Assembly: GCA_964016885.1 (NCBI GenBank)
Contig: OZ024741.1
Span: 224,874,001-224,938,000 of the forward strand
Direction of reading: 5' to 3'
Source: Eledone cirrhosa
Lineage: Eukaryota
DNA length: 64,000 nucleotides
Shown here: positions 17,099 to 64,000 of the stretch, piece by piece
Layout of the letters: each line of letters begins with the position of its first letter
How positions within the stretch are numbered: the first letter of the stretch is position 1
Program-made: the position numbers and the translations under genes
Notes under the pieces: generated by a model
Told to the model about the DNA's origin: nothing
Databases searched by the model: none
The model's input: only the letters and a program-made list of their open reading frames with translations

Positions 17099-17164
<66 letters not shown>

Positions 17165-17192
17165 TCTCTCTCTCTCTCTCGCTCTCTCTCTA
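17099..17192. repeat. (TC)n microsatellite ending in TCTA at the start of Tx1 element A
   Basis: Direct reading. Confidence 0.95.
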
Positions 17193-17414
17193 GCAGACGT
17201 GTGTAACTTCGCAGAGAAGTTTCCGTTGTTTTGTGTGAGAGAAAAACGTGAGTTTTCAGTTAAATTTTATATTATTGTATAACTTGACCCCCCGTCTGGA
17301 CCTTCAGGTGGTGGGTCAACTCATTTTCGCCCCTACAGGGGCGAAATATTCGTTTTAAAAATTTTTTTCTCCATCGAATTTTGGAAAAAATATATTAAGA
17401 AGTTTGATTACGTT

Positions 17415-19279
17415 ATGAACGCTGCGTTCAACGATAATGGTGGTGGAGAGTCGGTAAGACTACAAAGCTCGCAGTCAACATCGTCTTCTTCCCTAGATAC
17501 TATGGAGATGGAAAGACGAAATGAAAATGTAAAAACAAATTCATATCCAAACAACACAAATGACACCAAACAGTTCAATGACAACAAAAATAACAACACC
17601 AATAATGATGATAAAAACAACAATGACAACAACAACAAAGAAAAAAATAAAGACAACACCAATAACACCAGCATCAAAGACAACAACACCAACACCAACA
17701 CCAAGGAAAATACGAATAATATCAACATCAGTGACAACAAGAATAACAACAACAATAACAACAATAATGACAACACCACCAACACGGATAATTCCACAAA
17801 GAAACCAAAAATCTCCTTTGCACAGACCGTTCAAAAAAAGGAGGAACTGACATATCTCGACATAATGTCGAACAACTTTTAAAGGACGCTAGGAGATATG
17901 TCACTTTCGAAAAAAATGGTGCTTTCAGCATCAATTCTCCGGTAGAAATTCGCAAGGAAACTGCTCTCAAAACGATAGTTTTTAGGACAGTTTCCAATTC
18001 TACCCGAAAACCACTCCAATTGTTACAGAAAGAAATTGAACTGGTTTTCACAAATTCAATGAATGATATTGCATTCATTCAAAGAAGCAAACTTTTTGGG
18101 AGTATTTCGGTACTCATGAAGGATCAATTGACGGCCCAAAATTACTCTGTGTCGCCAATTGTATCCAACCTGTATACCGTTTTCCCTACATACATAGGAA
18201 AAAGGACACAGAAGATTAAAATCACGAGTGTCACACCAAAGGTGAACATATGATGGATACTGTGCGGCTTCATCAATTTTGATGAAGACAGAATACTGTC
18301 AGTAGGAAAGTCCCCCAGAGATGTATTCAATGGGACTAGCATTGAAGTTCTGGTGCAAATGAGCCCAGAGCGAATAGCTATGATCCCACAACGTGTACTC
18401 CTGGACGGACTCACCTACATAAACTTTTCGGTTGAGGGTAGGCGGCTTTCATGTTACCATTGCTTTAGCAGGGGTCACCCGAGGGCTTCCTGTCCTAAAT
18501 TAATGAGTAAAAAAAAGGCTCTTCTGCCGACACCCATCAAAACAACACAACCACCAACACCACCACAACAACAAAAACACCAACACACAAAAATAAGCAC
18601 AACAAACACAGTCGCACCCAACCCCACTCCACCTAAAACCACTGCAAAATCACATACAGACACAACAGATCCCCAAGACATACCCCTCCCCAATCACACA
18701 GACGATACAACAGATGAGGCTATCTCGCCACCACCCAGTGAACACGAGGTAGAACCCCATCGCTCAAAAAGAAAGAAAAGACATCACAAAAGCAAAAAAC
18801 CAGCAAACACTACCACAAACATACAACCACCAACACAAACAACAAAAACATCACAAACAAAACCCCCACCTCCTGAAAACAAAATACCTACAACAAAACG
18901 AAAGCACACACAAGAACTACAGACAAAAACAAACACAACACAAGAAAATTACACTTACACTTACATAAACACTGAAAACTTTCGCCCACTCTATTAAAAA
19001 TAACAAAAAACTGAACCTAAAACTGATTAGGGTCCCTATACAAACTTATAGGTCCCTAAAAGAAACATTTGAGAAGGATGTGGGGAATTCCTGCGTGAAA
19101 CCACTTAACCGCGTCCTTCTCAAATGTCTCACCACCCAAACACCCCCATCCCACCAGACCCCACCCCACCAAACATCTCCGTCCCCACCCCGCCGGAAAC
19201 CACCACCCATCCAGACAACCCCTCCAACACCCCCATGGAAATCGTGCAGCCTGGTTCCCAGGAGACGAAGGGTGAGTGA
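17415..19279 (+). pseudogene. Element A ORF1 (gag-like, zinc knuckle), disrupted
   Basis: Fragments 17415-17882, 18020-18253 and 18353-18997 are similar to B ORF1; CYHCFSRGHPRASC knuckle. Confidence 0.8.
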
Positions 19280-19312
19280 TCTTTTTTCCTCTTTTAACTT
19301 TTCAGCACCAAC

Positions 19313-22300
19313 ATGGCCAATATAAGAGTTGGATGTGTGAACGTACGCGGCCTGGGGATGCCCTGGAAACAGGGCAAACTCTTAAACGACCTCAGGTCAC
19401 ACAGTATGGAAGTGGTAGCCATTTGCGAGTCCAGGATCCACAGCGAGCGACAGCTGACCCCCATCTTCGATGACTTTGAGATCTACGCATCTCTCTGTCA
19501 ACCGGGGGGTGGGGCGGAGTTGCCGTTTTGCTGCGGAAACACCTGGGCCTCGTAACACAGACGGTACATCTGGACCCGGAGGGTCGACTGGTGGTCCTAG
19601 ACGTTGACGGTAGTGAAGGTGGAGCCTTCAGGTTGGTGGCCGCATATGCCCCATCCGGGACACGGCGGCCAGACTTCTTCAAACGTCTAGAGACTTTTCT
19701 GGGAACGTCCCGCTCCTTGCTTTTAGTGGGGGACTGGAATGGAATCCTAGATGCACGTAGGGACTATGTGGGAGCGTGTCCCGATGAAGGGGGGTGTAAC
19801 AGCCTCAAACAGTTAATCGAGCGATTTGACCTGGCCGATAGATATCGACTAGATTTTCCGTCTGCGCCACTGTGGACGTGGAGTAATCGCAGTGGAACAT
19901 CTAGATCGTACCTAGATAGGGTTCTAGTTAGAAATAAGGATAGGGACATGTTAAGCTGTCCACAAATGTTCATGGTTGCCTATTCAGATCACAAACTAGT
20001 GACCTGCATGGCCAACCTTGATAGAACCCATAGACAAGGACCCGGCTACTGGAAGCTGAACTTGTCGTTACCGACAAGCAAAGCCTACAGTAGACGGATT
20101 AGCACTTTAGTTAAACAGCACTTGACAGGGGCCATTGTCAACAACAGATGGTGGTACTCTCTCAAGAGGGCAGTTAGATTAGACTCGTTAGTTTTTAGTA
20201 AAGAATTAGCGTTAGATAGAAATAGAACCGAGAAGGAACTGGTAGATAAAGTAGAAGAGGCAATTAGAAGTGGCAACGTAGCCAGCGTGCTAGCAACGAG
20301 AACGGCCTTGGACCAGTCCTTCGACGCAAAGCACGAGGGCTGCGTTGTCAGAAGCAAAATACGTGCTCTGGGAAACGAGGGAGCCAAAGCTGTTAGCTGG
20401 GCCCGAGTGACGGAGGCAAAAAGTGGCAACAAGTTCACGATTCGGTCTTTGAAGGACCAAAACGGACGCGTGATACGTGAGCCGAAGCAGATGTGTGCGG
20501 CCTTTCAGCGGCACTTTGCTCAGCTGTCCGGGCGGGGCAGCGCGCCGGGAGGGGCTATGGATTTCGGTCCATACCTCGACGGCCTACCGCGACTCTCGGA
20601 CAGCGAGGCAAAGTTCTGCGAAAAGCCGATTTCAGCCGCTGAGATAGGGGACGCGCTGAGCCAATGCGGCAAACGCAAATTTCCAGGTCTCGACGGTCTA
20701 CCCTACGAATTTTACGTAGCAATGCCTGACTTATTCTCCGGTCTCCAGGAAGCGGTCTACTGCAACTGGCAACAGAACGGGAGAATTCCCAGTTCTGTAA
20801 CCGGGGGCGTAGTCACACTAATCAGGAAGGACGAGAATAAAGGGGATGACATAGGCAACTTCCGGTCCATAACTCTGCTAAACACAGAGTTACAGATTTT
20901 AGCCAAGGTGTTGGCAAAGAGGCTGGCGCTTGTCGTCGAGAACATGGTGGGAGAAGCGCAGACATGCGCAATCCCGACCAGGTCTATACACGACAACCTC
21001 CACCTCATGCGATACATCATAGAGAGGGTAGGGTGTAAACCCGGCTTCGGTGGGGCCCTGATCAACTTGGATCAGTCTAAGGCTTTCGATAGGGTTGACC
21101 ATCGTTACCTGGATTCGGTGCTCGAGGCGGCAGGCTTCGGACCCGTGTTCAGGGGCTGGATTGCTGCAATGCACAACAGCAACATCTGCTCAAGCGTCAA
21201 GGTGAACGGCTACCTATCGGAGCCGTTCCATATTACGCGATCCATTCGACAGGGATGCCCTCTCTCCTCCCTTCTGTACGTACTGACTCTCGAGCCACTA
21301 CTGCGGAAGTTGGAGCTATTGCAGAGCATCCCTCTGGAACTGGGACTGCGGAAAGCGGCGCCGGCCTACGCCGACGACGTCACAATAGTGGTGTCGAGCG
21401 CCTCGCAAATCGAGGAAGTCGGCACCTTACTGAAGGAATACGAAAGTTTCACAGGAGCGAAGCTGAACCGGGACAAGTCCATCGGTTTGCAACTCGGATC
21501 GTGGAGGGCCAAACCGATGCCTTCCGATGGCGTCGTCGGACGCTGGACCGAAGGACCGGTAAAGCTGCTCGGGGTCTGGTTTGGTCCGGACCTCCAGGTG
21601 GAGAAGAACTGGAACGAAGTGACGGCCAAGGTGTTTGCACTCACCCAGAAGTGGGCCGAGTGCAAACTATCCTTGAAAGGTCGAGCGGAGGTGGCGAACA
21701 CTTTTATAGCGTCCGCCATCTACTACCGCTTGACCGTCGTGCCTTGTCCAGCCAAAACGCTCGCCAAAATGGAGCGCGCGCTCTTCCAATTCATTTGGAA
21801 GAGGCGAGCTCCTTTGGTGAGAAGATCCATCTGCTGCCAACACCCTTCTAACGGAGGGCTGGGGATGCCGTGGTTGACGATGCGCAAACACGCGCTCAGG
21901 CTGCGGCATCTCTACGTATTCCTCACCGGACAACCGGTGTGGGCCCCGTTCGTGAGGCGAGCCTTCCCACGACTCGTCTCGCTGACCGAGCTGCAGTCCT
22001 GGGTCAAGCAAAGACCGAGGAAAATGGTCGACTGGCACATCGAATGTGCTCAGGCGCTCACAGCCCTCTGGCAGGCGGACCCGGCGATCAGTGGAGACTC
22101 CACTTCGTCATTCTATAGAGGGTTGATCCGCAGCAAGTGCGACGACGCGCTCGGCGAAACTCTAGGCGTAGAGGAAGATGAACTGGCCAGTCTGTTCGGT
22201 AGGACCTTCCGCCCGGGACCGATGGACAACTTCCAAAAGTCCCTGGCCTGGCAGTGCTACCGAGGAGCTCTACCAGTTCGAGACAAGCTCTACAGACATG

Positions 22301-22749
22301 GGCGCCTGGGCAGGGACCCTGCAAAAAAGATCTGTCCAAGGTGCGTGCGTAACGAAGAAACCGTCGCGCACGCATTCATACACTGCCCGGGCGTCACTGA
22401 TCTGTGGGGCTATGTAGAACGACTATTGTCGCGGGTGGGACCAATCCGGTTGACCACCGAGTCCATTGTCATGATCAAACCGCCACCCTCCTTCAAAAAC
22501 GAAGGAGAGGTGGTTTTCCTTTGTGTCATAGCTATGGCGAAAGAGGTTGTATGGTGGACAAGGTTGAAAGGGCTGAGGTCAGACACCTTTCTCTCCGGCC
22601 AACAACTGGTTCTTTTTTTCAAATACCACTTTGGAAGATGAATCAGGATGGAGAGAGAGGTGCTGCACCCCAGCAAGTTTTATGAAAGGTGGGTGAAAGT
22701 GGCGAGAATGGCCCGAGTGAATGGGCCTTCTCTCTATATCAGCCTGTAG
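19313..22749 (+). pseudogene. Element A ORF2 (APE endonuclease, reverse transcriptase, Zn domain)
   Basis: NVRGL, GDWN, SDH, LDQSKAFDRVDH, QGCPLS, YADD, CPRC..H..HC; frameshift near 19510 and premature TGA at 22639. Confidence 0.92.
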
Positions 22750-23199
22750 GTTGAGGAAAAGGAGGAGGAGAGGAAAGGAGTACAAACTCTTCGTACTCCT
22801 GCACATTTTTTTCGGGGATATGTGTTACCCATATGAACTGTCTCCCCCTATTGGGGAAAATCGACTAACTTTTTAAATTGCATTTGTGATAACATTTTAC
22901 ACGTTTTTATTGTATGTAAACTTCCCCCTTTGTATTTGTCCCATTCTTTTGTGCCCCTGTGGCTAATAAAGAAACATATCTATCTATCTATCTATCTTGA
23001 TAGAGTAAGACACGCTTCGCATCGGCTCCGCTATTCCATCGGGATTTACCCTTACTATTGTAAGTACCGGATAAATTTTTTAGTGCAACACATTTGGAAC
23101 ACTAACCCCTGTTATTTAGGGAAACATTTTTGCATTTACCCCCTTTTTAGGGGGTAAAATAAATATCTATTTTTGCCGAAAAATTTCTTTCTTGGCAGC

Positions 23200-25037
23200 A
23201 TGGCGGAAAAGATGGCAGACATGTCTGCCATTAGCTCTGCCACGCCCCCCAAGTCTGAAGAACAAAAAATAATTACAACAAAATTAGACATTGAAACAAA
23301 CAAAGAAAATGAAAAAACAAATGTTAAGGAAAATGAGCAAACAGAAAACAAACAAACAGAAAATAATACAAATAACGACAGGGCAACTTTCGCCCAGAAA
23401 ACAAAACAATCCATTACATACACACCAATTGACCTAACTGCCGCCAGAGAAAAACTGGCCGAAGCAAAGAAACACATTGTTTTGGGGGAGAACGGAATGT
23501 TTTCCATTAACTCCCCCCCAGAATTCAAGAAAGCCAGAGCAGAAAACACAGTTCTCTACAGAACTATACTGAACCAGACAAGAAAGCCAGCACAGCCCAG
23601 CCAAATGGAAATAGAGTTAGTCCTAAAAGACTATATGAAGAATATTCTCTTCATACGAAAGGACCGACTCTATGGCAGCATTTCGGTCCTAACAAGAGAC
23701 AAAGAAACGGCGGAGAAGCTTTCCCTAAGCCCACTCTCATCGACAACATATAGCTTCTATCCCTCCTACATGGGTAGAAGAACACAGAGAGTAAAAGTAA
23801 AAACAATGCTGCCCACAATGGACTTCTGGTGGGCTATTGCTGGCTTCATTGATATGGGCGAAGACACAATGCTGTCAATGGGGAAGGCAACTGGAGATGC
23901 GTTCCTGGGAATGGGCCTCGACATACTAGTCCAAATGAGGCCCGAAAGAATAGCACAAATCCCGGATCGCATCTGGCTGGATGACCTTACCCCAATAGAC
24001 ATAATTGTAGAGGGGAGAAGACCAGCATGCTATTTATGCATGGAAAGGGGACACGTTAAGGCTAACTGCCCGAAACGTATCCCTCAAAAAGGACTATTGC
24101 CCACACCCACCACAAACAGTACACCAACACCACCCACCTCCAAAAATACACTAATACCACACACAGCAAACAAAATACAGACACCACCAACCACAAACAC
24201 AACACAAACATCACCACCACCAGCACCAAACACAAGCACGACACAAAAATCACCACCACCAACCACAACACAAACATCACCACCACCATCACCAACCACA
24301 AGCACGACACAAACATTACCACCACCACCACAAAACCCATTCCAAACAAATAATAAAAAAAACAGTAACAAATCTACCCCTCCCGCAAAAAAAAAAACAA
24401 CCACACAACACGTCCCTCCCACCTAGCGCTGAAGAGTTTCCCCCAACTTCTGAAGAAGAAGGAGGAGAAGCCTTCAGACAAGTTAAAAGAAAAAAAAGAA
24501 AACACACACCCAGCACACCACAAATAACCCACACACAAACACCAACTCCAATCAAAAACACCCCACCCTCAACAAACAAAAATAAATCTGCGCCTCCCCT
24601 CTCCGAAACATTGACAGCATCACAAAAAAAGACGTTGCAATACACATATATAAATAAAGAAAACAAAAAACTGGTTAAATTAATAAACAATAACCCTATG
24701 GTGCAGACCGAAGGGCCAAACTTTATCTCAACAGAGAACTTCACCCATTTAAAAATGATAAAGGTCCCTCTGGACCTTTATCGTTCCTTAAAAGAACAAT
24801 TTAGACGGGACGTGAGCCCCCCCCCCCTGTTTAAAACCGTTGAATCGCGTCCTCTTGAAAGATTTCCCCATAACCGCCCCTCTCCCTGACACAACTCCAA
24901 ATACCCCAACCCCACCACACACGTGTACCCCCACACCACCACAAAACATCCCTCCACCCAACACACCTGATGCCATGGAAATTACGCAACCCGGAGAGGT
25001 AAGTGCTTTTCTTTCTTCACTTTCAACACCAAAATAG
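23200..25037 (+). CDS. Element B ORF1 (zinc knuckle, Pro/Thr-rich), with two apparent frameshifts
   Basis: ATG at 23200, CYLCMERGHVKANC; homology continues in frames 24611-24889 and 24840-25037 (NRVLLK..MEITQP). Confidence 0.75.
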
Positions 25038-28000
25038 ATCAATTGAGAGTTGGCTGTTTGAACGCGCGTGGCCTGGGCTCAGCTTGGAAGCAAGCAAAGC
25101 TTCTAAGTGACCTCAGGTCACAAAGTATAGATGTGATGGTTGTTTGCGAGAGTCGGATGAGCAGTGTGAGACAGCTGGCGCCCGCCTTCGATGACTTTGA
25201 GATGCACGCATCTCTCTGTCAACCCGGAGGCGGGGGGGGGGGAGTTGCCGTACTGCTGGATAAACGTCTGACTCTCGACGTACAGATTGTTCACTCGGAC
25301 CCGGGGGGTCGATTACTGGTGCTGGACGTCGGAGGCGGTGAAGGCGGGGCTTTCAGACTGGTCGGTCTTTATGCTCCCTTCGGGGCGGAAAGAGCCGACT
25401 TCTTCCAGCGTCTGGAGACTTTTCTAGGAACGTCGCGTACCCTGCTTTTAGTGGGGGACTGGAATGAAATCCTAGATGCGCGTTGGGACTATGCAGGGGC
25501 ATGTCCCGATAGAGGGGGGTGTAGCAGCCTCAAGGGGTTACTCGATCGATTCGACCTGGTCGATAGATTTCGACTAGATTGTCCAACTGCGCCAACCTGG
25601 ACCTGGGCAAACCGCAGTGGACAATCTAGATCGTACCTAGATAGGTTTTTGGTTAGGAGTAAGGATAGGGACGTATTTAGTTGTCTAGAACTGATCATGG
25701 TTGGCTATTCAGATCACAAATTAGTGACCTGCGTGGTCAACATTGATAGAACGCATAGACAGGGTCCCGGTTACTGGAAGATGAACTTGTCCTTACCGAC
25801 AAAGAAAGATTACAGAAACCGGATTAGTAGCTTAGTTAAGATGCGGTTGACGGGAGCGATCGTCAACAGTAGGTGGTGGGTATCTCTAAAGAGAGAGATT
25901 AGAGTAAGTTCGATAGGTTACAGTAAGGAACTAGCGGCGAATAGAAATAGGAAGGAAAGGGAGTTAACAGATAAACTAGAAGAGGCGATTAGGAGCGGAG
26001 ACGTAGCCAGAGTGTTAGCGACGAGAACGGCATTGAGCCAGTTCTTTGACGCGAAGCACGAAGGCTGCGTTGTCCGAAGTAAAATACGTGCTTTAGGAAA
26101 CGAGGGGACCAAAGCTGTTAGCTGGGCCCGCGTGACAGAAGCCAAGAGTGGGATTAAATCCACCATTCGGTCTTTGCGAGACCAGGATGGACGGGTGATC
26201 CTTGAACCTGAGCGAATGTTCGAGACCTTTCAAAGGCACTTTGCTCGACTGTTCGGAGGTGGCGGGGGGCCGGACGGGGATGTGGACTTCGGTCCATACC
26301 TCGACGGTCTACCGCGTCTTTCGAGCGGCGAAGCGGAGTGCTGCGAAAGGCCAATCACAGCCACTGAAATCGGGGAAGCGCTCAGCCAATGCAGCAGACG
26401 CAAATCCCCGGGTCTCGATGGTCTACCATACGAACTTTATTTAGCTATGCCGGTCTTGTTCTCCGAACTCCTCGAGGCTGTCTATTGCAACTGGCAACAG
26501 AACGGGAGAATTCCCTGTTCTGTGACCAAGGGCGTGGTCACGCTAGTGAGGAAGGACGAGAGCAAGGGGGACGACTTAAGTAACTTTAGGCCCATAACTC
26601 TGCTGAATGCAGAGTTACAGATTTTGGCCAAGGTGTTGGCGAAGAGGTTGGCGCTTGTGGTGGGTGGTTTGGTGGGAGACGCGCAGACATGCGCTATCCC
26701 GTCCAGGTCCATTCACGACAACCTCCACCTCATGCGATACATCATAGAGAGGGTTGGCTACGAACCCGGCTTTGGTGGGGCCCTGATCAACTTGGATCAA
26801 TCTAAGGCGTTCGATAGGGTCGACCATGGTTACCTGGATGCGGTGCTAGCGGCGGCGGGCTTCGGACCCGTTTTCAGGGGCTGGATTTCTGCCATGCACA
26901 GTGGCAACATCTACTCTAGGATTAAAGTAAACGGCTACCTCTCGGAGCCGTTTCAAATCACCCGATCCATCAGACAGGGGTGCCCCCTCTCCTCCCTTCT
27001 GTACGTATTGACTCTCGAGCCACTGCTGCGGAAGTTGGAGTTGCTGCGGGGCATACCCCTGGAACCGGGATTGCACAAAGCGGTCTCGGCCTATGCCGAC
27101 GACGTAACAGTAATGGTGGCGGACGCCTCGGAAATCGGGGCGATCGCCACCCTACTGGAGGAATACGAAAGGCTGACGGGGGCTAAGCTGAACCAGGACA
27201 AGTCAGTCGGTTTGCAACTCGGAACGTGGAGGGGCAAACCGATGCCGTTAGACGGTGTCGTCGGGCGGTGGACGGAGGGCCCGGTGAAGCTGCTCGGGGT
27301 CTGGTTCGGACCGGACCTCCAGGTGGAGAAGAATTGGGGCGAGGTGACGAGCAGGGTGTTTGCGCTGACCCAGAAGTGGGCCAAGTGCAAACTATCACTG
27401 AAAGGTCGGGCGGAGGTGACGAACGCTTACATAGCGTCCGTCATCTACTACCGCCTGACCGTCGTGCCTTGCCCCAAGGAAAAGCTCACCATCATGGAAC
27501 GCATGCTCTTCCAGTTCCTCTGGAAGAAGCGGCCTCCCATGGTGAGGAGATCCATCTGCTGCCAGCACCCTTCGAAAGGAGGGCTGGGTATGCCGTGGCT
27601 GTTGATGCGTAGGCACGCATTGAGGCTACGGCATCTACAGGTATTCCTCAACGGTCAGCCGGTGTGGGCCCCGTTTGTGAGGCGAGCCTTCCCACAGCTC
27701 GTCTCGCTCACCGAACTGCAATCCTGGGTGAAGCAAAGACCGAGAAAACTGGGCAACTGGCACACCGAGTGTGCCCAGGCGCTCACGGCTATCTGGCAAG
27801 CGGACCCGACTGTCAGTGGAGAATCCACCTCGACATTCTATAGAGGGTTGGTGGCTAGCAGGGGCGATGACACCCTTGGAGAGTCGCTAGGCATGGAGGA
27901 GGACGAACTGGCCAGCCTGTTCGGTAGAACTTTCGGCCCGGGACCCATGGACAACTTCCAGAGGTCCCTAGCCTGGCAGTGTTACCGGGGGGCTCTGCCC

Positions 28001-28474
28001 GTTCGAGAAAAGCTCTACAGACACGGGCGCCCGGGCAGGGATCCCGCGAAAAAGATCTGTCCCAGATGCGTGCGCGACGAGGAAACCGTTGCGCATGCAC
28101 TGGTACACTGCCCGGGCGTTGCCGATCTGTGGGGCTACGTCGAACGACTGCTGTCGCGTGTGGCGCCGATTCGATTAACCGCCGAGTCTGTGGTGAACAT
28201 CAAGCCGCCTCCTCCCTTCAGAAATGAAGCAGAGGCGGTCTTTCTGTGCGTAATAGCCATGATGAAAGAGGTTGTGTGGTGGACGCGCCTGAAAGGTCTG
28301 AGGTCGGGTGACTTTCTCTCCGGCCATCACCTGGTTTACTTCTTCCGATACCACTTCGGAAGAAGGATCAGGATAGAGAGAGAAGTGCTTGGTCCCAGAC
28401 AGTTTTATGAAAGGTGGGTGAAAGAAGCGAGAATGGCCCGTGTAAATGGGCCTTCTCTCTACATTGTTCTGTAG
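25034..28474 (+). CDS. Element B ORF2, uninterrupted APE-RT-Zn polyprotein (~1145 aa)
   Basis: 1143 open codons from 25043 with all endonuclease and RT motifs (YADD); the position matching the A and C start codon reads ATA at 25034. Confidence 0.93.
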   Translation: MDQLRVGCLNARGLGSAWKQAKLLSDLRSQSIDVMVVCESRMSSVRQLAPAFDDFEMHASLCQPGGGGGGVAVLLDKRLTLDVQIVHSDPGGRLLVLDVGGGEGGAFRLVGLYAPFGAERADFFQRLETFLGTSRTLLLVGDWNEILDARWDYAGACPDRGGCSSLKGLLDRFDLVDRFRLDCPTAPTWTWANRSGQSRSYLDRFLVRSKDRDVFSCLELIMVGYSDHKLVTCVVNIDRTHRQGPGYWKMNLSLPTKKDYRNRISSLVKMRLTGAIVNSRWWVSLKREIRVSSIGYSKELAANRNRKERELTDKLEEAIRSGDVARVLATRTALSQFFDAKHEGCVVRSKIRALGNEGTKAVSWARVTEAKSGIKSTIRSLRDQDGRVILEPERMFETFQRHFARLFGGGGGPDGDVDFGPYLDGLPRLSSGEAECCERPITATEIGEALSQCSRRKSPGLDGLPYELYLAMPVLFSELLEAVYCNWQQNGRIPCSVTKGVVTLVRKDESKGDDLSNFRPITLLNAELQILAKVLAKRLALVVGGLVGDAQTCAIPSRSIHDNLHLMRYIIERVGYEPGFGGALINLDQSKAFDRVDHGYLDAVLAAAGFGPVFRGWISAMHSGNIYSRIKVNGYLSEPFQITRSIRQGCPLSSLLYVLTLEPLLRKLELLRGIPLEPGLHKAVSAYADDVTVMVADASEIGAIATLLEEYERLTGAKLNQDKSVGLQLGTWRGKPMPLDGVVGRWTEGPVKLLGVWFGPDLQVEKNWGEVTSRVFALTQKWAKCKLSLKGRAEVTNAYIASVIYYRLTVVPCPKEKLTIMERMLFQFLWKKRPPMVRRSICCQHPSKGGLGMPWLLMRRHALRLRHLQVFLNGQPVWAPFVRRAFPQLVSLTELQSWVKQRPRKLGNWHTECAQALTAIWQADPTVSGESTSTFYRGLVASRGDDTLGESLGMEEDELASLFGRTFGPGPMDNFQRSLAWQCYRGALPVREKLYRHGRPGRDPAKKICPRCVRDEETVAHALVHCPGVADLWGYVERLLSRVAPIRLTAESVVNIKPPPPFRNEAEAVFLCVIAMMKEVVWWTRLKGLRSGDFLSGHHLVYFFRYHFGRRIRIEREVLGPRQFYERWVKEARMARVNGPSLYIVL

Positions 28475-28705
28475 GTGAAGAAGTGAAGAGGAAAGGGGGA
28501 GCGCCTCCTCTCTGGGCTTCCCCCGCGAAAAGAGTTGCACACTTTTCGGGGGTATGTGCAATCCCCAACACGCCCCCTCCTTTTTGAGGACTTTTTATTG
28601 TTATATTATTATTGTTATTCCTTTTTTCTTTACTCGATTTATGTAAACTCCCCCACTGTGTAAATGTCCCCTTCTTTTGTGCCCTCGTGGCAAATAAATA
28701 GAAAT

Positions 28706-28742
<37 letters not shown>

Positions 28743-28918
28743 GGACGTGCGGTAGATCGCTGGTAAGTTTTTGTAAAATTTTCCATACAAAAACAGAATT
28801 CATTGTGTAAAATTTTATATTGTTTGTCAGCTGGGTGGTAATCTCAGTTTTCGCCCGACAGGGGCAGAAATTTAATTAAAAATATTGACAAGTTTTAAAT
28901 ATTTTCCTAACTTTAATA

Positions 28919-30738
28919 ATGTGTGACTTACAACGAAAGCTAGACTGCGAGAAGAGAGGGAAAGAGACAGATATAAGCGTTATATCTCCCTCTATTTCCA
29001 TAGAAGTATCTATGGAGACAAACAACAACAAAACTTCATTTCGTAAACAAATGGATATTTACACAACAAAAGATGAAAATAACAGCCCACAACAGACACA
29101 AAAAAAATACAGAAAATGCAGAAATTGAAACAATTGACACAACTACACACGACAAAACCGACAACAACAACAACAAAATTGAAAAAACAACATTCGCACA
29201 GACTGTGATAAATAAAACAGAGTACAAACACATCGACATAAGCAACTCCAAACAAATGTTGACCGATGCAAAACAATTCATAACCTTTGAATAAAAGGGT
29301 GGGTTTTATATAAACTCACCCTTGCAAATTAAACGAGAAACAGTTCGGAGGACAGTAACCTTCAGAACTGTTTCAAATCAAACGAAAAAAACCGGTATTC
29401 CTCAGTCAAGGAGAAATTGAAACAACCCTGGAAGAGGCTCTGCCGGACATTGATTTTATGCAGAGGGCCAGACTATATGGAAGTGTGTCAGTACTTTTTA
29501 AAAGCGAGGCCCTCGCACAAAAACATTCTGTTACACCAGTCATCACAAAAACACACACCTTTTTCCTTACTTACATGGGAAAAAGAACTAAAAAAATTAA
29601 AATAAATAATATACCACCAAACATCAACATTTGGTGGATCTTGGCCGGTTTTATAGAGTCAGAAAGTGATACAATTTTTTCGGTCAGGAAATCGACCAGA
29701 AAAAGGTGGGCAGGGACAAATTTGGAAATTCTGATACAAATGACACCAGAAAGAATTTCCAAAATCCCCGAAAGAGTGCTGGTCGACAACCAGAACTACA
29801 TCAACATTGTCACTGGGGGGAGAAAGCCACACTGTTTTCGATGTGCAAGCATATCACACCTAAAAGCCTCCTTCCATTTACAAACAATTCTTAAAAAAAA
29901 AAAGTACTTTTACCAACACAACACCAAAACAATCACCACCACCACAACCACCACCACCACCACCACCACAACAACAACAACAGACGAAACGAGCAAACAC
30001 GCCAAAACAAACAGCCACTCAACCAACACCAGAAAAAGCAGAGACAACACCCCTGAAGAACACAGCCCCACCCATCCCACTCCATCAAACACTACCACAA
30101 ACACACACATCGAAACACCACCACCACACAACATACCCCTACCCCACACCCCTGACGATGATTATTCATTGACGGATGAAGCTGCTTCTCCTTCTTTAAG
30201 TGAAGAAGAGGGAGAGCCACGGAAATCTAAAAAACAAAAAAATAGACACCACAAAACCCCCTAAACTCCAATCACCAACACCAACACACAACCACAGACA
30301 CAAACAACACAAACAACACCACAGTCAAACATCCCCCTACCAGGAAAACCAACACCAACACCACCCCAAACACAAGCACCCACCATAAAAAGAAAACTCC
30401 CGGACGAACAACAAACTAAAACAACACTACAAAAACACAAACAACAATACGCATACATCAACACAAACAACAAGAGTTTGATGGAGGTCATCTCCCAAAA
30501 CCCCAAGGTGGAGACGGAGGGCAAAACTTTCGTCAAGGCAGAATCGCCTCCACACCTTAAACTTATAAGGTTTTCTATGGATAATGACCTGAAAAATAAA
30601 TTTTCGCAGGACGTGGGCAACCCCTGCCAGAAACCCATCAACCGCGTCATGTTAAAACGTTTCCCCACCACACCCAACACCCAATCCAGCATCCAAATGG
30701 AGGTTGAACAACCCGATTTCCAGGAAACGAAAAGGTAA
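28919..30738 (+). pseudogene. Element C ORF1, disrupted
   Basis: TFAQTV, LYGSVSVL, YMGKRT, degenerate knuckle CFRCASISHLKAS, NRVMLKRFP. Confidence 0.8.
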
Positions 30739-30779
30739 GTGCACCTTTCGTCCCTTTTCTCCAACTCTTCTTCATCAAC

Positions 30780-33700
30780 ATGGCTAGTTTACGAGTTGGA
30801 AGCGTGAATGTGCGTGGCCTAGGGATGCCCTGGAAACAATGCCAACTTTTAAACGACCTTAGGTCACACGGTATGGATGTGATAGCCATCACCGAGTCCA
30901 GGATCCACAACAGGCAGCAACTAACCCCTATCTTCGACGACTTTGAGATCTACGCATCTCTCTGTCAGCCAGAAGGTGGAGGGGGAGTGGCTGTCATGTT
31001 TCGGAAGTACCTGGACGTCGAAGTACAGCAAGTACACTTGGACCCGGAGGATAGACTGGTAGTCCTAGACGTGAACAATATTGGAGGTGGAGCCTTCAGA
31101 CTGGTGGCCATTTATGCCCCGACCGGGCAATCGCAATCACGGCCAGACTTCTTTAAGCGTCTAGAGTCTTTTCTGGGAACGTCTCGTTCCTTGCTTCTAG
31201 TGGGGGACTGGAATGGTATCCTAGATGCACGATGGGACTATGTGGGAGCATGTCCAAGTAGAGGGGGTGCAACAGCCTCAAAACTTTAATCGGCCAATTC
31301 CAACTGGCCGATAGGTATCGACTGGATTTCCCGACTGCACCACAGTGGACGTGGGCAAACAGCAGCGGGACATCTAGATCGTATTTAGATAGGTTCTTCA
31401 TTAGAGAAAGGGACAAGGAAATGTTAAGCTGTCCACGAATACACATGGTTAACTATTCAGATCACAAATTAGTCGTCTGCTTAGTCAACCGTGATAGAAT
31501 ACATAGACAAGGACCCGGATACTGGAAGCTGAACGTGTCGTTGCCGGCACGTAAAGTTTACAGTGAACGAATAAGTAGACTAGTCAAGCAACAGTTAACG
31601 GGAGCCATCGTCAACAATAGATGGTGGTACTCTCTCAAGAAAGCAATTAGAGTAGAATCGATAGGGTTTAGCAGAGAGTTAGCTTTAAAGAAACACAAAA
31701 TAGAAAGAGAACTAGTAGCCAAGGTAGAGGAGGCACTTAGAAGTGGCAACGCGGCTAGAGTGTTAGCGTCGAGAACGGCACTGGACCAGTTCTTCGATGC
31801 GAAACACGAAGGCTGCGTGGTCAGAAACAAAACACGTGCTCTAGGAAATGAAGGAGCGAAAGCTGTCAGCTGGGCCCGAGTGGCGGAGGCGAAAAGCGGC
31901 AACAAGTCCACGATTCGGTCTTTGAAAGACCAAAACAGACGCCAAATGTGTGCGGCCTTTCAGCAGCACTTTGCGCGACTGTTTGAGCAGAACGACGGTG
32001 AGCCGAACTGGGGAATGAACTTTAGTTCATACTTCGACGGCCTGGCGCGTCTCTCGAACACGGACGCTCTGGGCCGCTGCGGGAAACGCAAGTCACCCGG
32101 TCTAGATGGTCTACTCTATGAGTTTTACATAGGCATGCCGGACTTGTTCTCTGGTGTCCTCAAAGCCGTCTACTGCAATTGGCACCAGAACGGGAGAATT
32201 CCCAGTTCTGCAGGCAAGGGCGTAGTAACGCTGATCAGGAAAGACGAAACAAGGGGGACGAAATTAACAACTTCAGGCCCATAATTCTGCTCAACACAGA
32301 GTTAAAGATTTTGGCCAAGGTGCTAGCGACGAGGTTGGCGCTTGTCGTCGAGAACCTGGTAGGAAAAGCGCAAACGTGTGCAATCCCGACCAGGTCCATA
32401 CACGACAACCTCCACCTCATGCGATACATCATAGAGAGGGTGGCTAGTAAACCCGGCTTCGGTGGGGCTCTGATCAATTTGGATCAGTCTAAGGCATTCG
32501 ATAGGGTCGACCATCGATACTTGGTCCCATCGATACGGTTTCGGTCCCGTTTTCAGAGGCTGGATCGACGCGATGCACACCAGCATCTGCTCGAGAGTCA
32601 ACGTGAACGGCTACCTATCGGAGCCGTTCGCAATCACGCGTTCCATTCGACAGGGGTGCCCTCTCTCCTCCATTCTGTATGTATTGACTCTAGAGCCACT
32701 ACTGCGGAAATTGGAGCAGTTGCTGGGCATCCCTCTAGAACCGGGACTGCACAAAGCGGCGTCGGCTTATGCCGATGACATGACGGTAATGGTGTCGAGC
32801 ACCTCGGAAATCGGGGTGATCGGCAACTTACTGAAAGAATACGAAACGCTGACGGGAGCAAAACTGAACCCAGACAAGTCTGGTTTGCAATTTGGTACGT
32901 GGAGAGGAAAACCGATGACGTCCGACAGCGTCGCTGGATGCTGGACGGACGGACCGGTGAAATTGCTCGGGGTCTGGTGCGGTCCAGACCTCCAGGTGGA
33001 GAAAAACTGGAACGAGGTCACGGCCAAGGTGTTTGCGCTCACCCAGAAGTGGGCAGAGTGCAAACTGTCCTTGAAAGGTCGAGCGGAGGTGGCGAACACT
33101 TTCATAGCGTCCATCATCTACTACCGCTTGACTGTCGTGCCTTGCCCCCGTGAACACCTCGGCAAGATGGAGCGCATGCTCTTCCAGTTTCTGTGGAAGA
33201 AGCAGGCTCCGCTGGTGAGGAGATCCGTCTGCTGTCAGCACCCTTCCAACGGAGGGCTGGGAATGCCGTGGCTGATGATGCGCAAACATGCGCTGAGGCT
33301 GTGGCATCTCCAGGTATTCCTCACCGACCCCCAACCAGTGTGGGCACCGTTTGTGAGACAGGCTTTCCCACAGCTCGTCTGGCTGACGGAGCTGCAGTCC
33401 TGGGTCAAGAAAAGACTGAAAACGATGGGCACCTCGCACATTGAATGCGCTCAGGCGCTCACAGTCCTCTGGCAAGCGGGCACAGCAATCAGTGGAGACT
33501 CCACTTCGACATTCTATAGAGGGATTGTACGTTACAAGGGCGACGACGTGCTCGGAGAGACTCTGGGCGTCGAAGACGATGAGCTCGCCAGTCTGTTTGG
33601 TAGGACTTTCCGCCCGGGACCTATGGAAAACTTCCTGAGGTCCCTGGCCTGGCAGTGCTACCGAGGAGCTCTACCGGTTCGTGACAAGATCTACAGGCAC

Positions 33701-34116
33701 GGACACCCCGGCAGGGATCCTTCCAAGAGGACGTGTTCAAGATGCGCGCAGGGCATTGAAACAGTCCTGCACGCAATTGTACACTGCCCGGGAGTAACTG
33801 ACCTGTTACGCTATGGAGAACAACTGCTGTCGCGTATGGAACAAATCCAGTTGACTGCCGAGTCCTTAGTAAGGATCAAACCGCCAGCCTCTTTCAAAAA
33901 CGAAAGAGAAGCGGTTTTCCTCTGTACGGTGGCTATGGTGAACGAGATTGAGGGGACTGAGGACAGATGCCTTTCTCTCCCTTCTTTAAGTATCATTTTA
34001 GACGGAGAATCAGAGTAGAGAGAGAGGCACTGCACCCCAGTAAATTTACTGAAAGGTGGGTGAATGAAGAGGAAATGGCCCGAGTGATTGGGCCTTCTCT
34101 GTTTATAAGCCTGTAG
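30780..34116 (+). pseudogene. Element C ORF2, frameshifted
   Basis: Fragments 30780-31289, 31421-32284, 32179-32778 and 32573-34018 are collinear with A and B ORF2. Confidence 0.9.
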
Positions 34117-34372
34117 GTTGAAGAAGAGAGCAAAAGGAAGAAAGGAGAACTTACACAACACGCTCCTGGAGGTGAGGGTTGTTCTATCGACGGGGTATTA
34201 AACAACCCATTTGTGGCGCTTCCCCCCTATTGGGGATTTCGATTGTTGTAATTGTTTGTTTTTATTTTTTTTATACGACTGTATGTAAAATCCTCGGCAT
34301 GACTTTGTATTGTCCCCTTTTTTTGTGCGCCCTTGTGGCAAATAAAGAAATCTATCTATCTATCTATGTATG

Positions 34373-34417
<45 letters not shown>

Positions 34418-34489
34418 GTCTATGCCGACGGCCATGTTGTCCACCTGTCTTTACACGTGCTCACCAAAGCTTTCAATCTATCACCAACG

Positions 34490-54681: not shown

Positions 54682-55533
54682 TTTTAGTGATAGCTTTTTC
54701 GCTATTTCTCTTGTTTATGGGCATTAACTACCCTAACAAAATCATCAGTTACTTTCCTAGTCCTAGAAATATGACATTTAACTCTCCATGACTAAATAAT
54801 GATTTCATTTATTGGCCACAAGGGCCGACATATAGAGGACAATACAAAAGACTGGGACAGTGGGGTTTTACAGGTGCATTTTTCAGTGGGCATTTACGTC
54901 AATGTCTCACGAGAAATGAGACTCTCTCGTTTTGTCCTTCCGCTCATGTGGCGTCGGTGTTTCTTTTACTTCCGATGCACCCCCCCCCCCAACAAAAAAA
55001 TCGTACGTCCTTAACAATTGTCAACATCATTGCAAATATAACTGTATAAATAATTTATCTATCTGTACCTGTGTATGAGTATGTATAGATATGTGTTTGT
55101 TGTCTATTAAGACACAGTAAATACTCTGACATAACTCACACATGATTTGGTTGAAGTAATTTATCACCTGTGGTTGGAATTAATTTATCTTGCTTCAGCA
55201 CGTAATAATTAATAGCATTTCATTGATTACACTGTTATATTAGTATAATTATTGCATCGATGTCTCATTCGTATCATTATACAATTAATTATCAATATAA
55301 TCAGTTACATCATTAATTTAACACTTTTTTATATACAATGTTTTTAGTGATAGCTTTTTCGCTATTTCTCTTGTTTATGGGCATTAACTACCCTAACAAA
55401 ATCATCAGTTACTTTCCTAGTCCTAGAAATATGACATTTAACTCTCCATGACTAAATAATGATTTCATTTATTGGCCACAATGGCCGACATATAGAGGAC
55501 AATACAAAAGACTGGGACAGTGGGGTTTTACAG
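54682..55533. repeat. 192-bp direct duplication (offset 660) spanning the 3' end of Tx1 element D and its flank
   Basis: 54682-54873 equals 55342-55533 with one mismatch seen. Confidence 0.9.
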
Positions 55534-58500
55534 AAAAATCGAGCAAACAATATGAATAACAATAACAAAGTAACAAGAAAAATACAAGAAAAATTCCCAA
55601 TAGGGGGGGATGACCACCCAGGGTTCGCTCAGGTACCCCACCAATCCTGAATGACCCGACGCTTCGAGAGCACCCTGGAAGGGCACCCCTCTCCTCCTCA
55701 AATTTACCCACCTACAGTGTATGACCAGAGTAGGCCGACTCACACGGGCCATTCTCGCCACATTCACCCACCTTTCAACAGATGTACGGGGGGAGGGGGG
55801 GGGGCACTTCTCTCTCCACCCTCATCTTCCTTTCCAAGTGAAACTTGAAGAAGTTGATGAGGGATTGGCCGAAGAGAAAAGTGTCTGTCTTCAGTCCTTT
55901 TAACCTCATCTACCATACAACCTCTTTCGCTACTGCCACCAGACAGGAAAATTGCCAGCCCTTCCTGGCCAAAAGAAGGCGGCGGGTCGATCTTCACTAT
56001 GGACTCGGATCTATTCTACACGCGACAACAGCTGTTCGACATAACTCCACAAGTCAGTAATGCACGGACACTGGACGCGTGCGTGCAGAACGGTTTCGTC
56101 GCTCTGCGCGCGTCTCGGGCAGGTCCGCGCCTGTAGAGTTTATCTCGAACCGGCAGTGCCCCTCGGTAGCACTGCCAAGCGAAGGATTTTTGGAAATTAT
56201 CCATCGTCTCCGGCTCGAAAGTCCTCCGGAACAGACTGGTTAGTTCGACTTCGTCAACTCCCAGAGCCTCTCCGAGTGCGTCGTCGCACTTTCGCACCAC
56301 TAATCCTCTATAGAACTCGAGAGTGGAAGTTCCACTGACCGCATTGCCCGCCTGGTAGAGGGCAGTGAGTGCCTGGAAACATTCCAGATGCCAGTCACCC
56401 AGTCTCGGTCTCTTCAGGACTGCAGTTCAGTCAAAGAGACGAGCTGCGGAAAGGCCCGTCTGATAAACGGCGACCACACCTGTTCACCGTTTAGGCAGAA
56501 TATCTGGAGATGCCGCAGCCTCAGCGCGTGTCTGCGCATCATTAGCCACGGCATGCCCAGCCCTCCACGTAGAGGGTGCTGGCAGCAGATGGACCTCCTC
56601 ACCAATGGAACCTAACCCCTCCACAAGAATTTGAAGAGGAGCCGCTCCAAGATGGCGAGGCGCGAACGGGGGCAAGAGACAACGGTCAGACGGTAGTAGA
56701 TGACGGACGCGATGTACGCCTTCGCTACCTCCGCCCGAACTTTTAGGGATAGCTTTCTCGCAGCCCATTTCTGGGTGAGACTGGCTACCCTTCCCGTCAC
56801 CTCGTCCCAATTCTTATCCACCTGGAGGTCTGGCCCGAACCAAACCCCGAGCAACTTTACTGGTCCGTCCGTCCAGCGCCTAACGACGCTGTTTCACGGC
56901 ATGGACTTGCCTCTCCAGGTGCCGAGTTGCAAGTCCGCCGACCTTTCCGGGTTAAGTTTTGCTCCCGTCAACCTTTCATATTCCTCCAATAAGTTGCCGA
57001 CCACCTCGATTTCTGAGGTGTCCGACACCATCACGGTGATGTCGTCCGCATAAGCCGACACAGCCTTTCCGCGTCCCGGTTCGAGGGGGATGCCCTGCAA
57101 CAGCTCCAACTTCCGCAGTAAAGGCTCGAGAGTCAATACGTACAGAAAGGAGGAGAGAGGGCACCCTTCAAGGACCGATCGCGTGACCTGAAACGTTTCC
57201 GAGAGGTGGCCATTAATTTTGACCACCGAGCAGGTGCCGCTGTGTATTGCAGCGATCCAGCTTCTGAAGACGGGGCCGAAGCCAGCCGCCTTAAGGACAG
57301 CCTCCAGGTACCGATAGTCGAACCTATCGGATGCTTTCGATTGATCTAAATTGATCAGAGCCTCACCGAAGCCAGGTTTACACCTTACCCTCTCTAAGAT
57401 ATATCGCATCAGGTGGAGGTTGTCGTGTATGGACCTGGTTGGGATTGCGCAAGTTTGCGCCTCCCCACCCAAATTCCCGACGACAAGCGCCAACCTCTTC
57501 GCTAACATCTTAAACTCTGTGTTGAGCAGGGTTATGGGCCTGAAATTGTCTAATGTGTCCCTCTTGTTCTCGTCTTTCCTTATCAGCGTCACTACGCCCC
57601 GGCTCACAGAACTGGGAATGCTCCCGTTCTGCTGCCAGCTGCAGTAGAGCGCTTCGAAGAGATTGGAGAACAAGTCTGACATATTTACGTAAAGCTCGTA
57701 GGGTGACTTGCGCCTCATGCAGCCGACAAGGGCATCCTGAATCTCGGCTGAAGTAATCAGCCTTTCGCAGCGCCCAGCGTCGGCCGTCGAGAGTTGCGGC
57801 AAGCCATCGACTGAAGTCCGCCACCGTCTCTGACCCGCCACTTCCCCCGAACAATCGAGCAAAATGTTGGCGAAAGGCCTCACACATCCTCTTGGAATCG
57901 CTCAGCTCGTGTCCATCTCGGTCCGTCAAAGACCGAACTGTGGTTTTATTACCACGCTGCGCTTCTGCCACGCGGGCCCATCGAACAGCTTTTGTTCCCT
58001 CGTTTCTCAGAGCACGCACCTTAGCTCTGACAATGCAATCTTCGTGTTTCGCATTGAAGAAATGGTCTAATGCCATTCTCGCCGCTAGCACGTTAGTTGC
58101 AATGCCACTACAAATAGCCTCGTCTAACTTATCTACCAACGTCCCCTATTTCTATTTTTCTCTAACGCTACTTCTTTGCTAAACTCTCTCGTCATTACCC
58201 TAATCTCTCTTTTGAGAGCCCCATACCATATATTGTTGACGACTCCCCCTGTCAACCTTTTCTTAACTAAGTTGTTGACCTGGTCCATATAAGCCTTACG
58301 TGCCGGAAATGACATGTTCAGCTTCCAGTAACCAGGTCCTAACCTACCCATCTTATCTAGGTCGACCATACAGATCACAAACTTGTGATCTGAATAGGCG
58401 ACCGTTTTAAAACGCGGTCAGCTTACACTATTTCTGTCTATTTTCCTAATGAATATCCTGTCTATATACGATCTAGATGACCCTATGCGGTTAGCCCAGG

Positions 58501-62679: not shown

Positions 62680-63825
62680 GGATTGGCAGTATCGGTAGAG
62701 GGTCGGACGCCATGCTTTCCAGCATAGTTACGTCCCTTTACGCTCTGAGTTCAAATCCCGCCGAGGTTGACTTTGCCTTTCATCCTTACGGGGTCGATAA
62801 AATAAAGTACCAGTAATGCACTGGGGTAATTGCTGGCCTTGTGCCAAAAGTAGAAACAATTATTTAAAGGTGGATTGGCAGTATCGGTAGAGGGTCGGAC
62901 GCCATGCTTTCCAGCATAGTTACGTCCCTTTACGATCTGAGTTCAAATCCCGCCGAGGTTGACTTTGCCTTTCATCCTTACGGGGTCGATAAAATAAAGT
63001 ACCAGTAATGCACTGGGGTAATTGCTGGCCTTGTGCCAAAAGTAGAAACAATTATTTAAAGGTGGATTGGCAGTATCGGTAGAGGGTCGGACGCCATGCT
63101 TTCCAGCATAGTTACGTCCCTTTACGATCTGAGTTCAAATCCCGCCGAGGTTGACTTTGCCTTTCATCCTTACGGGGTCGATAAAATAAAGTACCAGTAA
63201 TGCACTGGGGTAATTGCTGGCCTTGTGCCAAAAGTAGAAACAATTATTTAAAGGTGGATTGGCAGTATCGGTAGAGGGTCGGACGCCATGCTTTCCAGCA
63301 TAGTTACGTCCCTTTACGATCTGAGTTCAAATCCCGCCGAGGTTGACTTTGCCTTTCATCCTTACGGGGTCGATAAAATAAAGTACCAGTAATGCACTGG
63401 GGTAATTGCTGGCCTTGTGCCAAAAGTAGAAACAATTATTTAAAGGTGGATTGGCAGTATCGGTAGAGGGTCGGACGCCATGCTTTCCAGCATAGTTACG
63501 TCCCTTTACGATCTGAGTTCAAATCCCGCCGAGGTTGACTTTGCCTTTCATCCTTACGGGGTCGATAAAATAAAGTACCAGTAATGCACTGGGGTAATTG
63601 CTGGCCTTGTGCCAAAAGTAGAAACAATTATTTTAAAGGTGGATTGGCAGTATCGGTAGAGGGTCGGACGCCATGCTTTCCAGCATAGTTACGTCCCTTT
63701 ACGATCTGAGTTCAAATCCCGCCGAGGTTGACTTTGCCTTTCATCCTTACGAGGTCGATAAAATAAAGTACCAGTAATGCACTGGGGGTAATTGCTGGCC
63801 TTGTGCCAAAAGTAGAAACAATTAT
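62680..63825 (+). repeat. Tandem array of six near-identical 192-bp SINE units
   Basis: gattggcagtatcgg starts at 62681, 62873, 63065, 63257, 63449 and 63642. Confidence 0.95.
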
Positions 63826-64000
63826 AAATACTCTGACTCAGACACAACTTTATCCAAATATATTTAGAATATAAAACTCAGAAATTTACATGTTTATATC
63901 ATATGCAAAATTCGTTGAATTTCCAAGGGTTTACAACGGAAGAATATTAGCCAGATCTACTTTAAAAAAAAAAAAAATAAAAAATAAAGCCCCAAAATTC

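What the first reader, a model, noticed from the sequence alone, without database searches (positions are those of the whole stretch)
17099..34422. Three different full-length Tx1 retrotransposons chained head-to-tail through (TATC)n
Seen: (TC)n-TA | A | (TATC)5 | B | (TATC)9 | C | (TCTA)n, all in the same orientation with no other spacer. ORF1s and UTRs differ strongly, so this is not a tandem duplication. Established: some Tx1-clade families (Kibi, Koshi) target microsatellites. Inference: a group specific for (TATC/GATA)n, or elements whose TATC tail creates the target for the next insertion and so builds arrays. Relative D lacks TATC and ends in ATT repeats.
Basis: partly seen in the sequence, partly recalled or inferred. 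Interest (0 to 1): 0.8.

Follow-up and report, generated by a model that had tools for sequence, protein, structure and literature searches.

The report
Jumping genes that target TATC repeats
Three related jumping genes sit nose-to-tail because their families insert almost only into TATC repeats; sister families use other repeats, and full-length copies carry a short copy of their own target at the front end, which likely helps them join the chromosome precisely.

Summary
A, B and C are three different L1/Tx1-type LINE families (ORF2 DNA 74-80% identical) joined by (TATC)5 and (TATC)9. Genome-wide, 529 of 568 exact B 5' ends follow TATCTATC (chance about 1e-4), and 60 of 60 paired B copies have TATC at the 3' end. 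Some 5'-truncated copies show 14-19 bp target duplications that start at TATC and run into non-repeat DNA, so TATC is mainly target, not tail. Arrays come from serial insertion into tracts on either side of older copies: B, the youngest, sits between A and C. No preference for element-adjacent tracts was shown. D is also specific, for (ATT)n. A further family, E, targets a minisatellite. Full-length copies begin with a family-specific, target-like leader (E: the same 15-mer in 18 of 19 copies), and B is 54 of 59 full-length on contig C1. The mechanism resembles melanogaster-type R1 and Kibi/Koshi. The targets and target shifts were not found in seven paper searches, but Repbase/Dfam could not be checked. 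Kinship to named Tx1, Kibi or Koshi is untested.

The parts
17099..17190 (+). (TC)n tract, left flank; likely the left part of the original compound microsatellite
17191..17194 (+). TAGC, variant end of family A's target-like leader (usually TCTCTACC or TCTCTATC)
17195..22976 (+). Element A, full-length and damaged: DPE-like AGACGTG 17195-17201, donor-like GTGAGT 17248, hairpin 17325-17346, ORF2 ATG 19313, stop 22747-22749, AATAAA 22965; about 2% from nearest copies
22977..22996 (+). (TATC)5: 3' target tract of A and 5' leader/junction of B
22997..28706 (+). Element B, youngest family (0.3% from nearest copies); 568 exact 5' ends in the genome; AATAAA 28693
23200..24426 (+). B ORF1, cut short in this copy (408 aa; 611 aa in intact copies); two RRM-like folds and a CCHC knuckle
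25034..28474 (+). B ORF2 (APE endonuclease, RT, zf-RVT), open; ATA stands where A, C and D have ATG and overlaps the ORF1 stop of intact copies
28707..28742 (+). (TATC)9: 3' target tract of B and 5' junction of C
28743..34352 (+). Element C, oldest of the three (about 5% from nearest copies), several frameshifts; GGACGTG 28743, donor-like GTAAGT 28763, ORF2 ATG 30780
34353..34416 (+). (TATC)3 (TATG)2 (TATC)11, right flank
55456..60549 (-). Element D, 5'-truncated copy of the sister (ATT)n-targeting family; 11-bp duplication at 55445-55455 and 60550-60560

Best explanation
A, B and C are three families of one L1/Tx1-type retrotransposon lineage that insert at TATC repeats, and the array likely grew by separate insertions into the TATC tracts beside earlier copies, B last. 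Shown: insertion sites, orientation, clustering, relative ages, target duplications at some truncated copies, and family-specific 5' leaders. Inferred steps: (1) The endonuclease nicks the GATA strand at the start of a TATC unit and the other strand about 14-19 nt downstream. (2) The RNA ends a few bases past AATAAA inside the repeat, pairs with the nicked primer and so leaves no poly(A). (3) Transcription starts upstream of the element body, inside the target tract (a DPE-like motif lies only 0-11 nt inside the edge), so full-length cDNA ends in target-like sequence, anneals to the upstream target and makes a precise junction that usually hides the duplication; truncated cDNA joins by microhomology and shows it. 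(4) Each insertion leaves a tract on both sides, so arrays form on one strand. The target has shifted within the lineage: (TATC)n in A, B, C and others, (ATT)n in D, and a TATATC minisatellite in E.
For: B 5' ends: 529 of 568 follow TATCTATC; chance 1e-4. B 3' ends: 60 of 60 start with TATC, 1-20 units. A: 26 of 30 5' flanks and C: 26 of 29 have TATCTATC within 40 nt. Truncated A-family copies: 34 of 41 have TATCTAT within 30 nt upstream; duplications run into non-repeat DNA at L290, L293, L287, L288. Both informative truncated B copies (L354, L363) show 16-19 bp duplications; among 22 informative full-length A/B copies only 2, from one locus, do. Leaders are family-specific: TCTC in the last 12 nt in A 25 of 30, C 15 of 29, B 0 of 59. 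E carries the same 15-mer in 18 of 19 5' junctions, while only 6 of 19 3' flanks and 14 of 116 other flank units have it. D: 10 of 10 5' heads follow ATTATT. Clustering: 55 of 100 family 3' ends have a neighbour within 7 kb (2.9% expected), and 32 of 32 adjacent pairs are on one strand. Ages: B 0.3%, A 2%, C 5%. Trees: TATC rows 100/99, ATT rows sister; E nested among TATC families.
Against: There is no biochemical or RNA evidence, so steps 1-3 are inferred. The duplication asymmetry is only suggestive: exact matches in 5 of 20 informative truncated A copies against 2 of 22 full-length; allowing one mismatch, the test loses all power (7 of 20, shuffled mean 4.1; 13 of 22 full-length). 39 of 568 B 5' ends lack two perfect units. 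Some A copies, including this one, have only (TC)n on the 5' side, so A's target may be looser. Some arrays arose by duplication: L121/L122 are identical with a 240-nt duplicated flank, and L154/L155 share a truncated-A unit. The C-terminal DNA tree does not make the TATC families one side of a branch, because E is nested among them, and its deep forks are weak. One row labelled TATC in the protein tree (L004) was labelled from its 5' flank only.
Confidence: 0.8

Rival explanations
1. Targeting is set mainly by RNA-DNA pairing: a loosely specific endonuclease nicks widely, and only nicks where the RNA's 3' repeat and 5' leader can pair become insertions. Changing the captured flanks would then change the target.
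For: Leaders match each family's own target. E differs from A by only about 14% in DNA yet uses another target. Targets can be as short as 1-2 units (L293, L194).
Against: Truncated copies, which lack the leader, are still at TATC (34 of 41), so the 5' leader is not required. The nick register is very constant. Published APE-type targeting is attributed to the endonuclease (passages of PMC4494074 and PMC3812793). The endonucleases of the ATT and TATC families differ (55-58% identical). 3' pairing is not excluded.
Confidence: 0.25
2. TATC is a tail synthesised by the element, insertion is untargeted, and arrays arise because tails attract later copies.
For: All 3' ends begin with TATC. At least 9,528 (TATC)3 tracts begin at a family 3' end.
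Against: Isolated copies have TATC on the 5' side. Only 4 nt are invariant at the 3' end. Duplications include non-repeat flank. In the window, A lies upstream of the older C.
Confidence: 0.05
3. Insertion is random, and copies survive or accumulate only in TATC-rich, low-selection regions.
For: Family ends are clustered along C1.
Against: Junctions are in exact register with the repeat in a family with 0.44% median divergence. Selection cannot give single-base register or one strand.
Confidence: 0.02
4. The array is a tandem duplication or an assembly artefact.
For: A few B-B pairs elsewhere are duplications (L121/L122).
Against: A, B and C are 74-80% identical in ORF2 with near-unalignable UTRs. 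Each belongs to its own dispersed family.
Confidence: 0.02

Closest known systems
Kibi and Koshi (Tx1 clade, teleost fish) and crocodilian Tx1 families
   Same: APE-type elements inserted specifically into microsatellites: (TC)n, (TTC)n, (TTCC)n/(TTTC)n (passages of PMC4494074, PMC3812793).
   Different: Targets here are (TATC)n, (ATT)n and a minisatellite, in an invertebrate-like genome, with several families interleaved in arrays. Kinship is untested.
Melanogaster-type and tandem R1 elements (Stage and Eickbush 2009, PMC2718515)
   Same: Tandem arrays by insertion into the regenerated target. Full-length copies have precise junctions explained by target sequence on the transcript 5' end, while truncated copies show about 14-bp duplications. 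Target sequence at the transcript 3' end.
   Different: R1 targets one 28S rRNA site and is co-transcribed with it. Here the targets are dispersed repeats, the best solved relative is L1, and the leader likely comes from the element's own start site lying in the target.
Double-insertion TE dimers (bioRxiv 10.1101/158386)
   Same: Head-to-tail tandems with the target site in the junction.
   Different: There, dimers mostly involve one family. Here 44 of 60 B copies adjoin a relative, often of another family.
Dong, Waldo, Mino
   Same: Microsatellite-specific non-LTR elements (TAA, ACAY, AC; passage of PMC3812793). D's (ATT)n is the same repeat class as Dong's TAA.
   Different: Other clades (clade assignment recalled, not tested); convergence.
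Tx1, Tx1-Mar and Tx1-9_AMi
   Same: Targets inside other dispersed repeats, like family E.
   Different: E is nested within a microsatellite-targeting group and keeps a 15-nt copy of one repeat unit as its leader.

Membership tests
L1 group / Tx1 clade | ORF2 with APE endonuclease, RT and C-terminal zinc motif | tested here: met
   Pfam Exo_endo_phos, RVT_1 and zf-RVT (zf-RVT at or just under cutoff)
L1 group / Tx1 clade | RT/EN closer to L1 than to R2-type elements | tested here: met
   Best solved relative is human L1 ORF2p, E 1.6e-50; R2 7e-23. Only 11 sequences matched, so other clades are barely represented.
L1 group / Tx1 clade | Type I ORF1p (RRM plus CCHC) rather than Transposase_22 | tested here: met
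   Model pLDDT 84.8; RRM hits at Foldseek E 1.7e-4 and Z 9.5, rmsd 2.5 over 81 residues; CX2CX4HX4C visible; Pfam zf-CCHC weak, E 0.019; feature taken from passages of PMC5203782
L1 group / Tx1 clade | RT groups with named Tx1 references | tested here: inconclusive
   No named Tx1L, Kibi, Koshi or Keno sequence was retrieved. The tree has only unnamed relatives and tunicate pol-like proteins.
L1 group / Tx1 clade | Target preference (over 20% of flanks in one repeat type, criterion in PMC4494074) | tested here: met
   93% of B 5' ends
Kibi/Koshi lineage | (TC)n or (TTC)n target | tested here: not met
   B: TCTC in 0 of 59 junction-proximal 12-mers; TATC ends 58 of 59. A has a TC-containing leader and some (TC)n flanks, but its 3' flanks are TATC.
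Kibi/Koshi lineage | RT monophyly with Kibi/Koshi | not testable with these tools
   References not obtained; Kojima and Fujiwara 2004 not held
Melanogaster-type R1 integration (works-like) | Element-borne target-like sequence at full-length 5' junctions | tested here: met
   E 18 of 19; family-specific leaders in A, B, C
Melanogaster-type R1 integration (works-like) | Duplications at truncated but not full-length copies | tested here: inconclusive
   5 of 20 against 2 of 22 exact; 2 of 2 informative truncated B
Melanogaster-type R1 integration (works-like) | Target sequence present on the RNA 5' end | not testable with these tools
   Needs transcript ends

The most novel reading that the evidence does not exclude
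This lineage specifies and re-programs its target partly through RNA. Its promoter starts transcription inside the target, so each family inherits a copy of its founder's target as a leader. In B, C and E that leader can pair with the element's first bases (a 9-bp stem in E, changing with the target). The leader would give near-uniform full-length insertion (B 54 of 59) and allow quick switches between (TATC)n, (ATT)n and a minisatellite. The youngest, intact family also makes ORF2 without an AUG.
Probability: 0.3. Interest if true: 0.82.

Novelty: new variant of a known kind. Interest (0 to 1): 0.6.

Why it matters
What sets the target of APE-type retrotransposons, and how targets switch, is open (PMC3812793 says the mechanism is not well understood). 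This genome holds closely related families with three different targets, one of them very young with intact copies (17 of 60 keep both ORFs), so endonuclease-versus-RNA swaps become direct tests. A LINE family that is about 90% full-length, with a target-like leader, bears on the poorly understood 5'-joining step, which limits retrotransposon-based gene insertion. The lineage also shapes the genome's repeats: at least 9,528 (TATC)3 tracts begin at a family 3' end, against 53,610 counted tract starts.

Tried and rejected
Preference for tracts next to older elements: not shown. By a lenient test 29 of 60 B copies have a family 3' end upstream, but by the same strict pattern used genome-wide it is 11 of 59 against 17.8% expected, p = 0.48. 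Spliced ORF1-only retrocopies, suggested by donor-like GTRAGT at the ORF1 end and acceptor-like CTGTAG|G at the ORF2 stop: 0 matches for B; one donor and one family were tested. An in-frame ORF1-ORF2 splice works by inspection only in C, so it was rejected. Expression: no RNA holder listed. Empty alleles: no read or contig data were laid, so this is open. Ribozyme or known RNA at the 5' ends: 4 weak Rfam matches, all far below gathering score. Named Tx1/Kibi/Koshi references: two protein searches and a cluster look-up gave none; the Atlas gave only unnamed RT clusters. Earlier scan findings: three look-ups, none found. The 719 exact B-type 3' 20-mers are not a B copy number: at least 31 of the 91 on C1 belong to other families. 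Two papers were not held.
Full report
OBSERVATION. The window is G000:C2:224874001-224938000 of a 3.0-Gb animal genome. Its SINEs look octopus-like to me; that is recalled and untested. The sequence reads (TC)~46, TAGC, A (17195-22976), (TATC)5, B (22997-28706), (TATC)9, C (28743-34352), interrupted (TATC)n to 34416, all on +. ORF2 regions are 74-80% identical, and the UTR and ORF1 windows about 40-64%. D (55456-60549, minus strand) is about 70-71% identical to each.

WHAT THEY ARE. ORF2 has APE endonuclease, RT and zf-RVT, and its best solved relative is human L1 ORF2p. ORF1 of an intact B copy (L129, 611 aa) has a CCHC knuckle. A model of ORF1 residues 71-300, from a 12-row alignment, has pLDDT 84.8 and matches RRM domains. 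RRM plus CCHC is the type I ORF1 described as consistent with the Tx1 clade (passages of PMC5203782). No named Tx1, Kibi or Koshi sequence came back from two homologue searches. The closest outside relatives are unnamed proteins at 74% and 50-54% RT identity. Tx1 membership is therefore supported by architecture only.

TARGET. Exact whole-genome counts give 568 B 5' ends, 529 of them directly after TATCTATC; reversed controls gave 0. In 20 arbitrary 10-kb stretches the chance is 1.0e-4. Of 60 B copies with both ends (59 fetched from best-hit lists on C1, C2, C10 and C24, plus the window), all 60 start their 3' flank with TATC, 1-20 units, and 58 of 59 5' flanks end in TATC. A and C agree: 26 of 30 and 26 of 29 have TATCTATC within 40 nt of the 5' end; one C copy was not matched by the probe, and L113 lacks the repeat.

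TARGET, NOT TAIL. Only TATC is invariant at the 3' end. Truncated A-family copies have TATCTAT within 30 nt upstream in 34 of 41 cases. Several show 14-18 bp duplications that start at TATC and run into non-repeat DNA (L290, L293, L287, L288). The two informative truncated B copies show 16-19 bp duplications (L354, L363); a third joins by microhomology with target loss (L364). No poly(A) follows the AATAAA that lies about 10 nt from each 3' end.

ARRAYS. 29 of 60 B copies have a family 3' end within 200 nt upstream, 33 of 60 have family sequence within 200 nt downstream, and 44 of 60 have either. Among the first 100 family 3' ends on C1, 55 have another within 7 kb (2.9% expected), and 32 of 32 adjacent pairs share a strand. 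Divergence from the nearest fetched copies is B 0.3%, A 1.8-2.5%, C 4.6-5.5%, so B likely entered between A and C, and A likely entered the tract on C's 5' side. Against a special preference: 9,528 family ends precede (TATC)3, against 53,610 tract starts counted after a non-C base, and the strict pattern finds 11 of 59 B copies (p = 0.48). Arrays therefore follow from target regeneration and abundance. A minority are duplications (L121/L122).

TARGET SHIFTS. D-family 3' ends begin TCATTA in 25 of 30 copies, 10 of 10 5' heads follow ATTATT, and D relatives also chain head-to-tail (L302, L306, L318). L188 has a 17-bp duplication. Family E is 85-87% identical to A: 25 of 31 non-B ends fetched from C1 begin TATAT, within a degenerate minisatellite. 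In the RT tree the four TATC rows group at 100/99 with the two ATT rows as sister (C and E absent). In the DNA tree of 46 of the ends found (up to three per cluster, singletons left out), E is nested among TATC families with weak deep forks.

LEADER. The last bases before the element body are family-specific: TCTC within 12 nt in A 25 of 30, C 15 of 29, B 0 of 59; TACC in A 18 of 30, B 0 of 59. In E the same 15-mer precedes 18 of 19 copies, whereas 6 of 19 3' flanks and 14 of 116 other flank units carry it. It is therefore inherited with the element and is not a local duplication. Full-length copies rarely show the duplication (2 of 22 informative, one locus, against 5 of 20 truncated, exact match); the one-mismatch test is uninformative, so this stays suggestive. 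A motif like the downstream promoter element lies 0-11 nt inside the edge in A, B, C, D and E. DPEs of insect LINE promoters sit at +28 to +32 (passages of PMC4748587), which would put the start site inside the target; this is inference. B is mostly full-length. Of 91 B-type 3' 20-mers on C1, 49 pair with a B 5' end. Of the 42 unpaired, 40 were fetched: 5 full B, 3 truncated B, 1 chimeric B, 31 other families. The other two are a B chimera (L210) and a 33-nt remnant. That gives 54 of 59.

ACTIVITY AND ORF2 START. B copies differ by a median 0.44%, and 17 of 60 keep both ORFs. In all 59 copies where the site was found (1 not matched), ATA stands where A, C and D have ATG, overlapping the ORF1 stop. 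ORF2 translation coupled to ORF1 is reported for SART1 and L1 (passage of PMC2881922); AUG-independence in human L1 is recalled, since that paper was not held.

COMPARISON AND NOVELTY. Microsatellite-specific Tx1 families are known for (TC)n, (TTC)n and (TTCC/TTTC)n (passages of PMC4494074; PMC3812793). Arrays by repeated insertion and transcript-borne target sequence are known for R1 (PMC2718515: outline, first part of section 11, sections 15 and 18) and for TE dimers (passages of bioRxiv 10.1101/158386). Cephalopod papers list L1-Tx1 as abundant or recently active without targets in the passages seen (PMC13282606; PMC8967140). Seven searches (listings only) found no TATC-targeting element. 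No supplements were read, and Repbase, Dfam and subscription journals were not searchable; they may already record this target.

VERDICT. Real, and a new variant of a known kind. Targeting and serial insertion are very well supported (about 0.95). The full mechanism including the leader step is put at 0.8, with the split between endonuclease and RNA pairing open. Interest 0.6.

Noticed in passing
window 25031-25040; 59 B copies: ORF2 begins with ATA instead of ATG, overlapping the ORF1 stop, fixed in the youngest family, which has intact copies.
   Followed up: partly
window 17248, 23060, 28763; 19272, 24999, 30735; 22744, 28469, 34111: Donor-like GTRAGT near each 5' end and at each ORF1 end, and an acceptor-like pyrimidine-rich CTGTAG|G at the ORF2 stop, in A, B, C and D. 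No spliced B retrocopy was found.
   Followed up: partly
window 17325-17346, 23135-23158, 28849-28870: A 5' UTR hairpin kept in otherwise unalignable UTRs, with changed stem letters between A and B; also seen in family E.
   Followed up: partly
L355-L388 (e.g. L357, L382, L385): Family E inserts at TATATC in a degenerate minisatellite that is part of another dispersed repeat; its leader pairs with the element's first 9 bases.
   Followed up: yes
L164, L166, L169, L175, L178, L179, L183, L186: D-family copies often lie just before the same SINE-like repeat, at its ATT-rich end.
   Followed up: no
L210, L353: Chimeric copies switching between B and a relative inside ORF2.
   Followed up: no
window 54785-54880: A second copy of D's 3' end with the same downstream flank, about 660 bp away.
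   Followed up: no
window 62680-63830: Head-to-tail tandem copies of a SINE-like unit of about 180 bp.
   Followed up: no
L128, L140, L216, L230, L231, L295 (downstream of the indexed copy): Several further distinct 5' heads follow TATC tracts, each with a donor-like motif; more TATC families exist than A, B and C.
   Followed up: partly
L274: An A copy followed by (TACC)n instead of (TATC)n.
   Followed up: no
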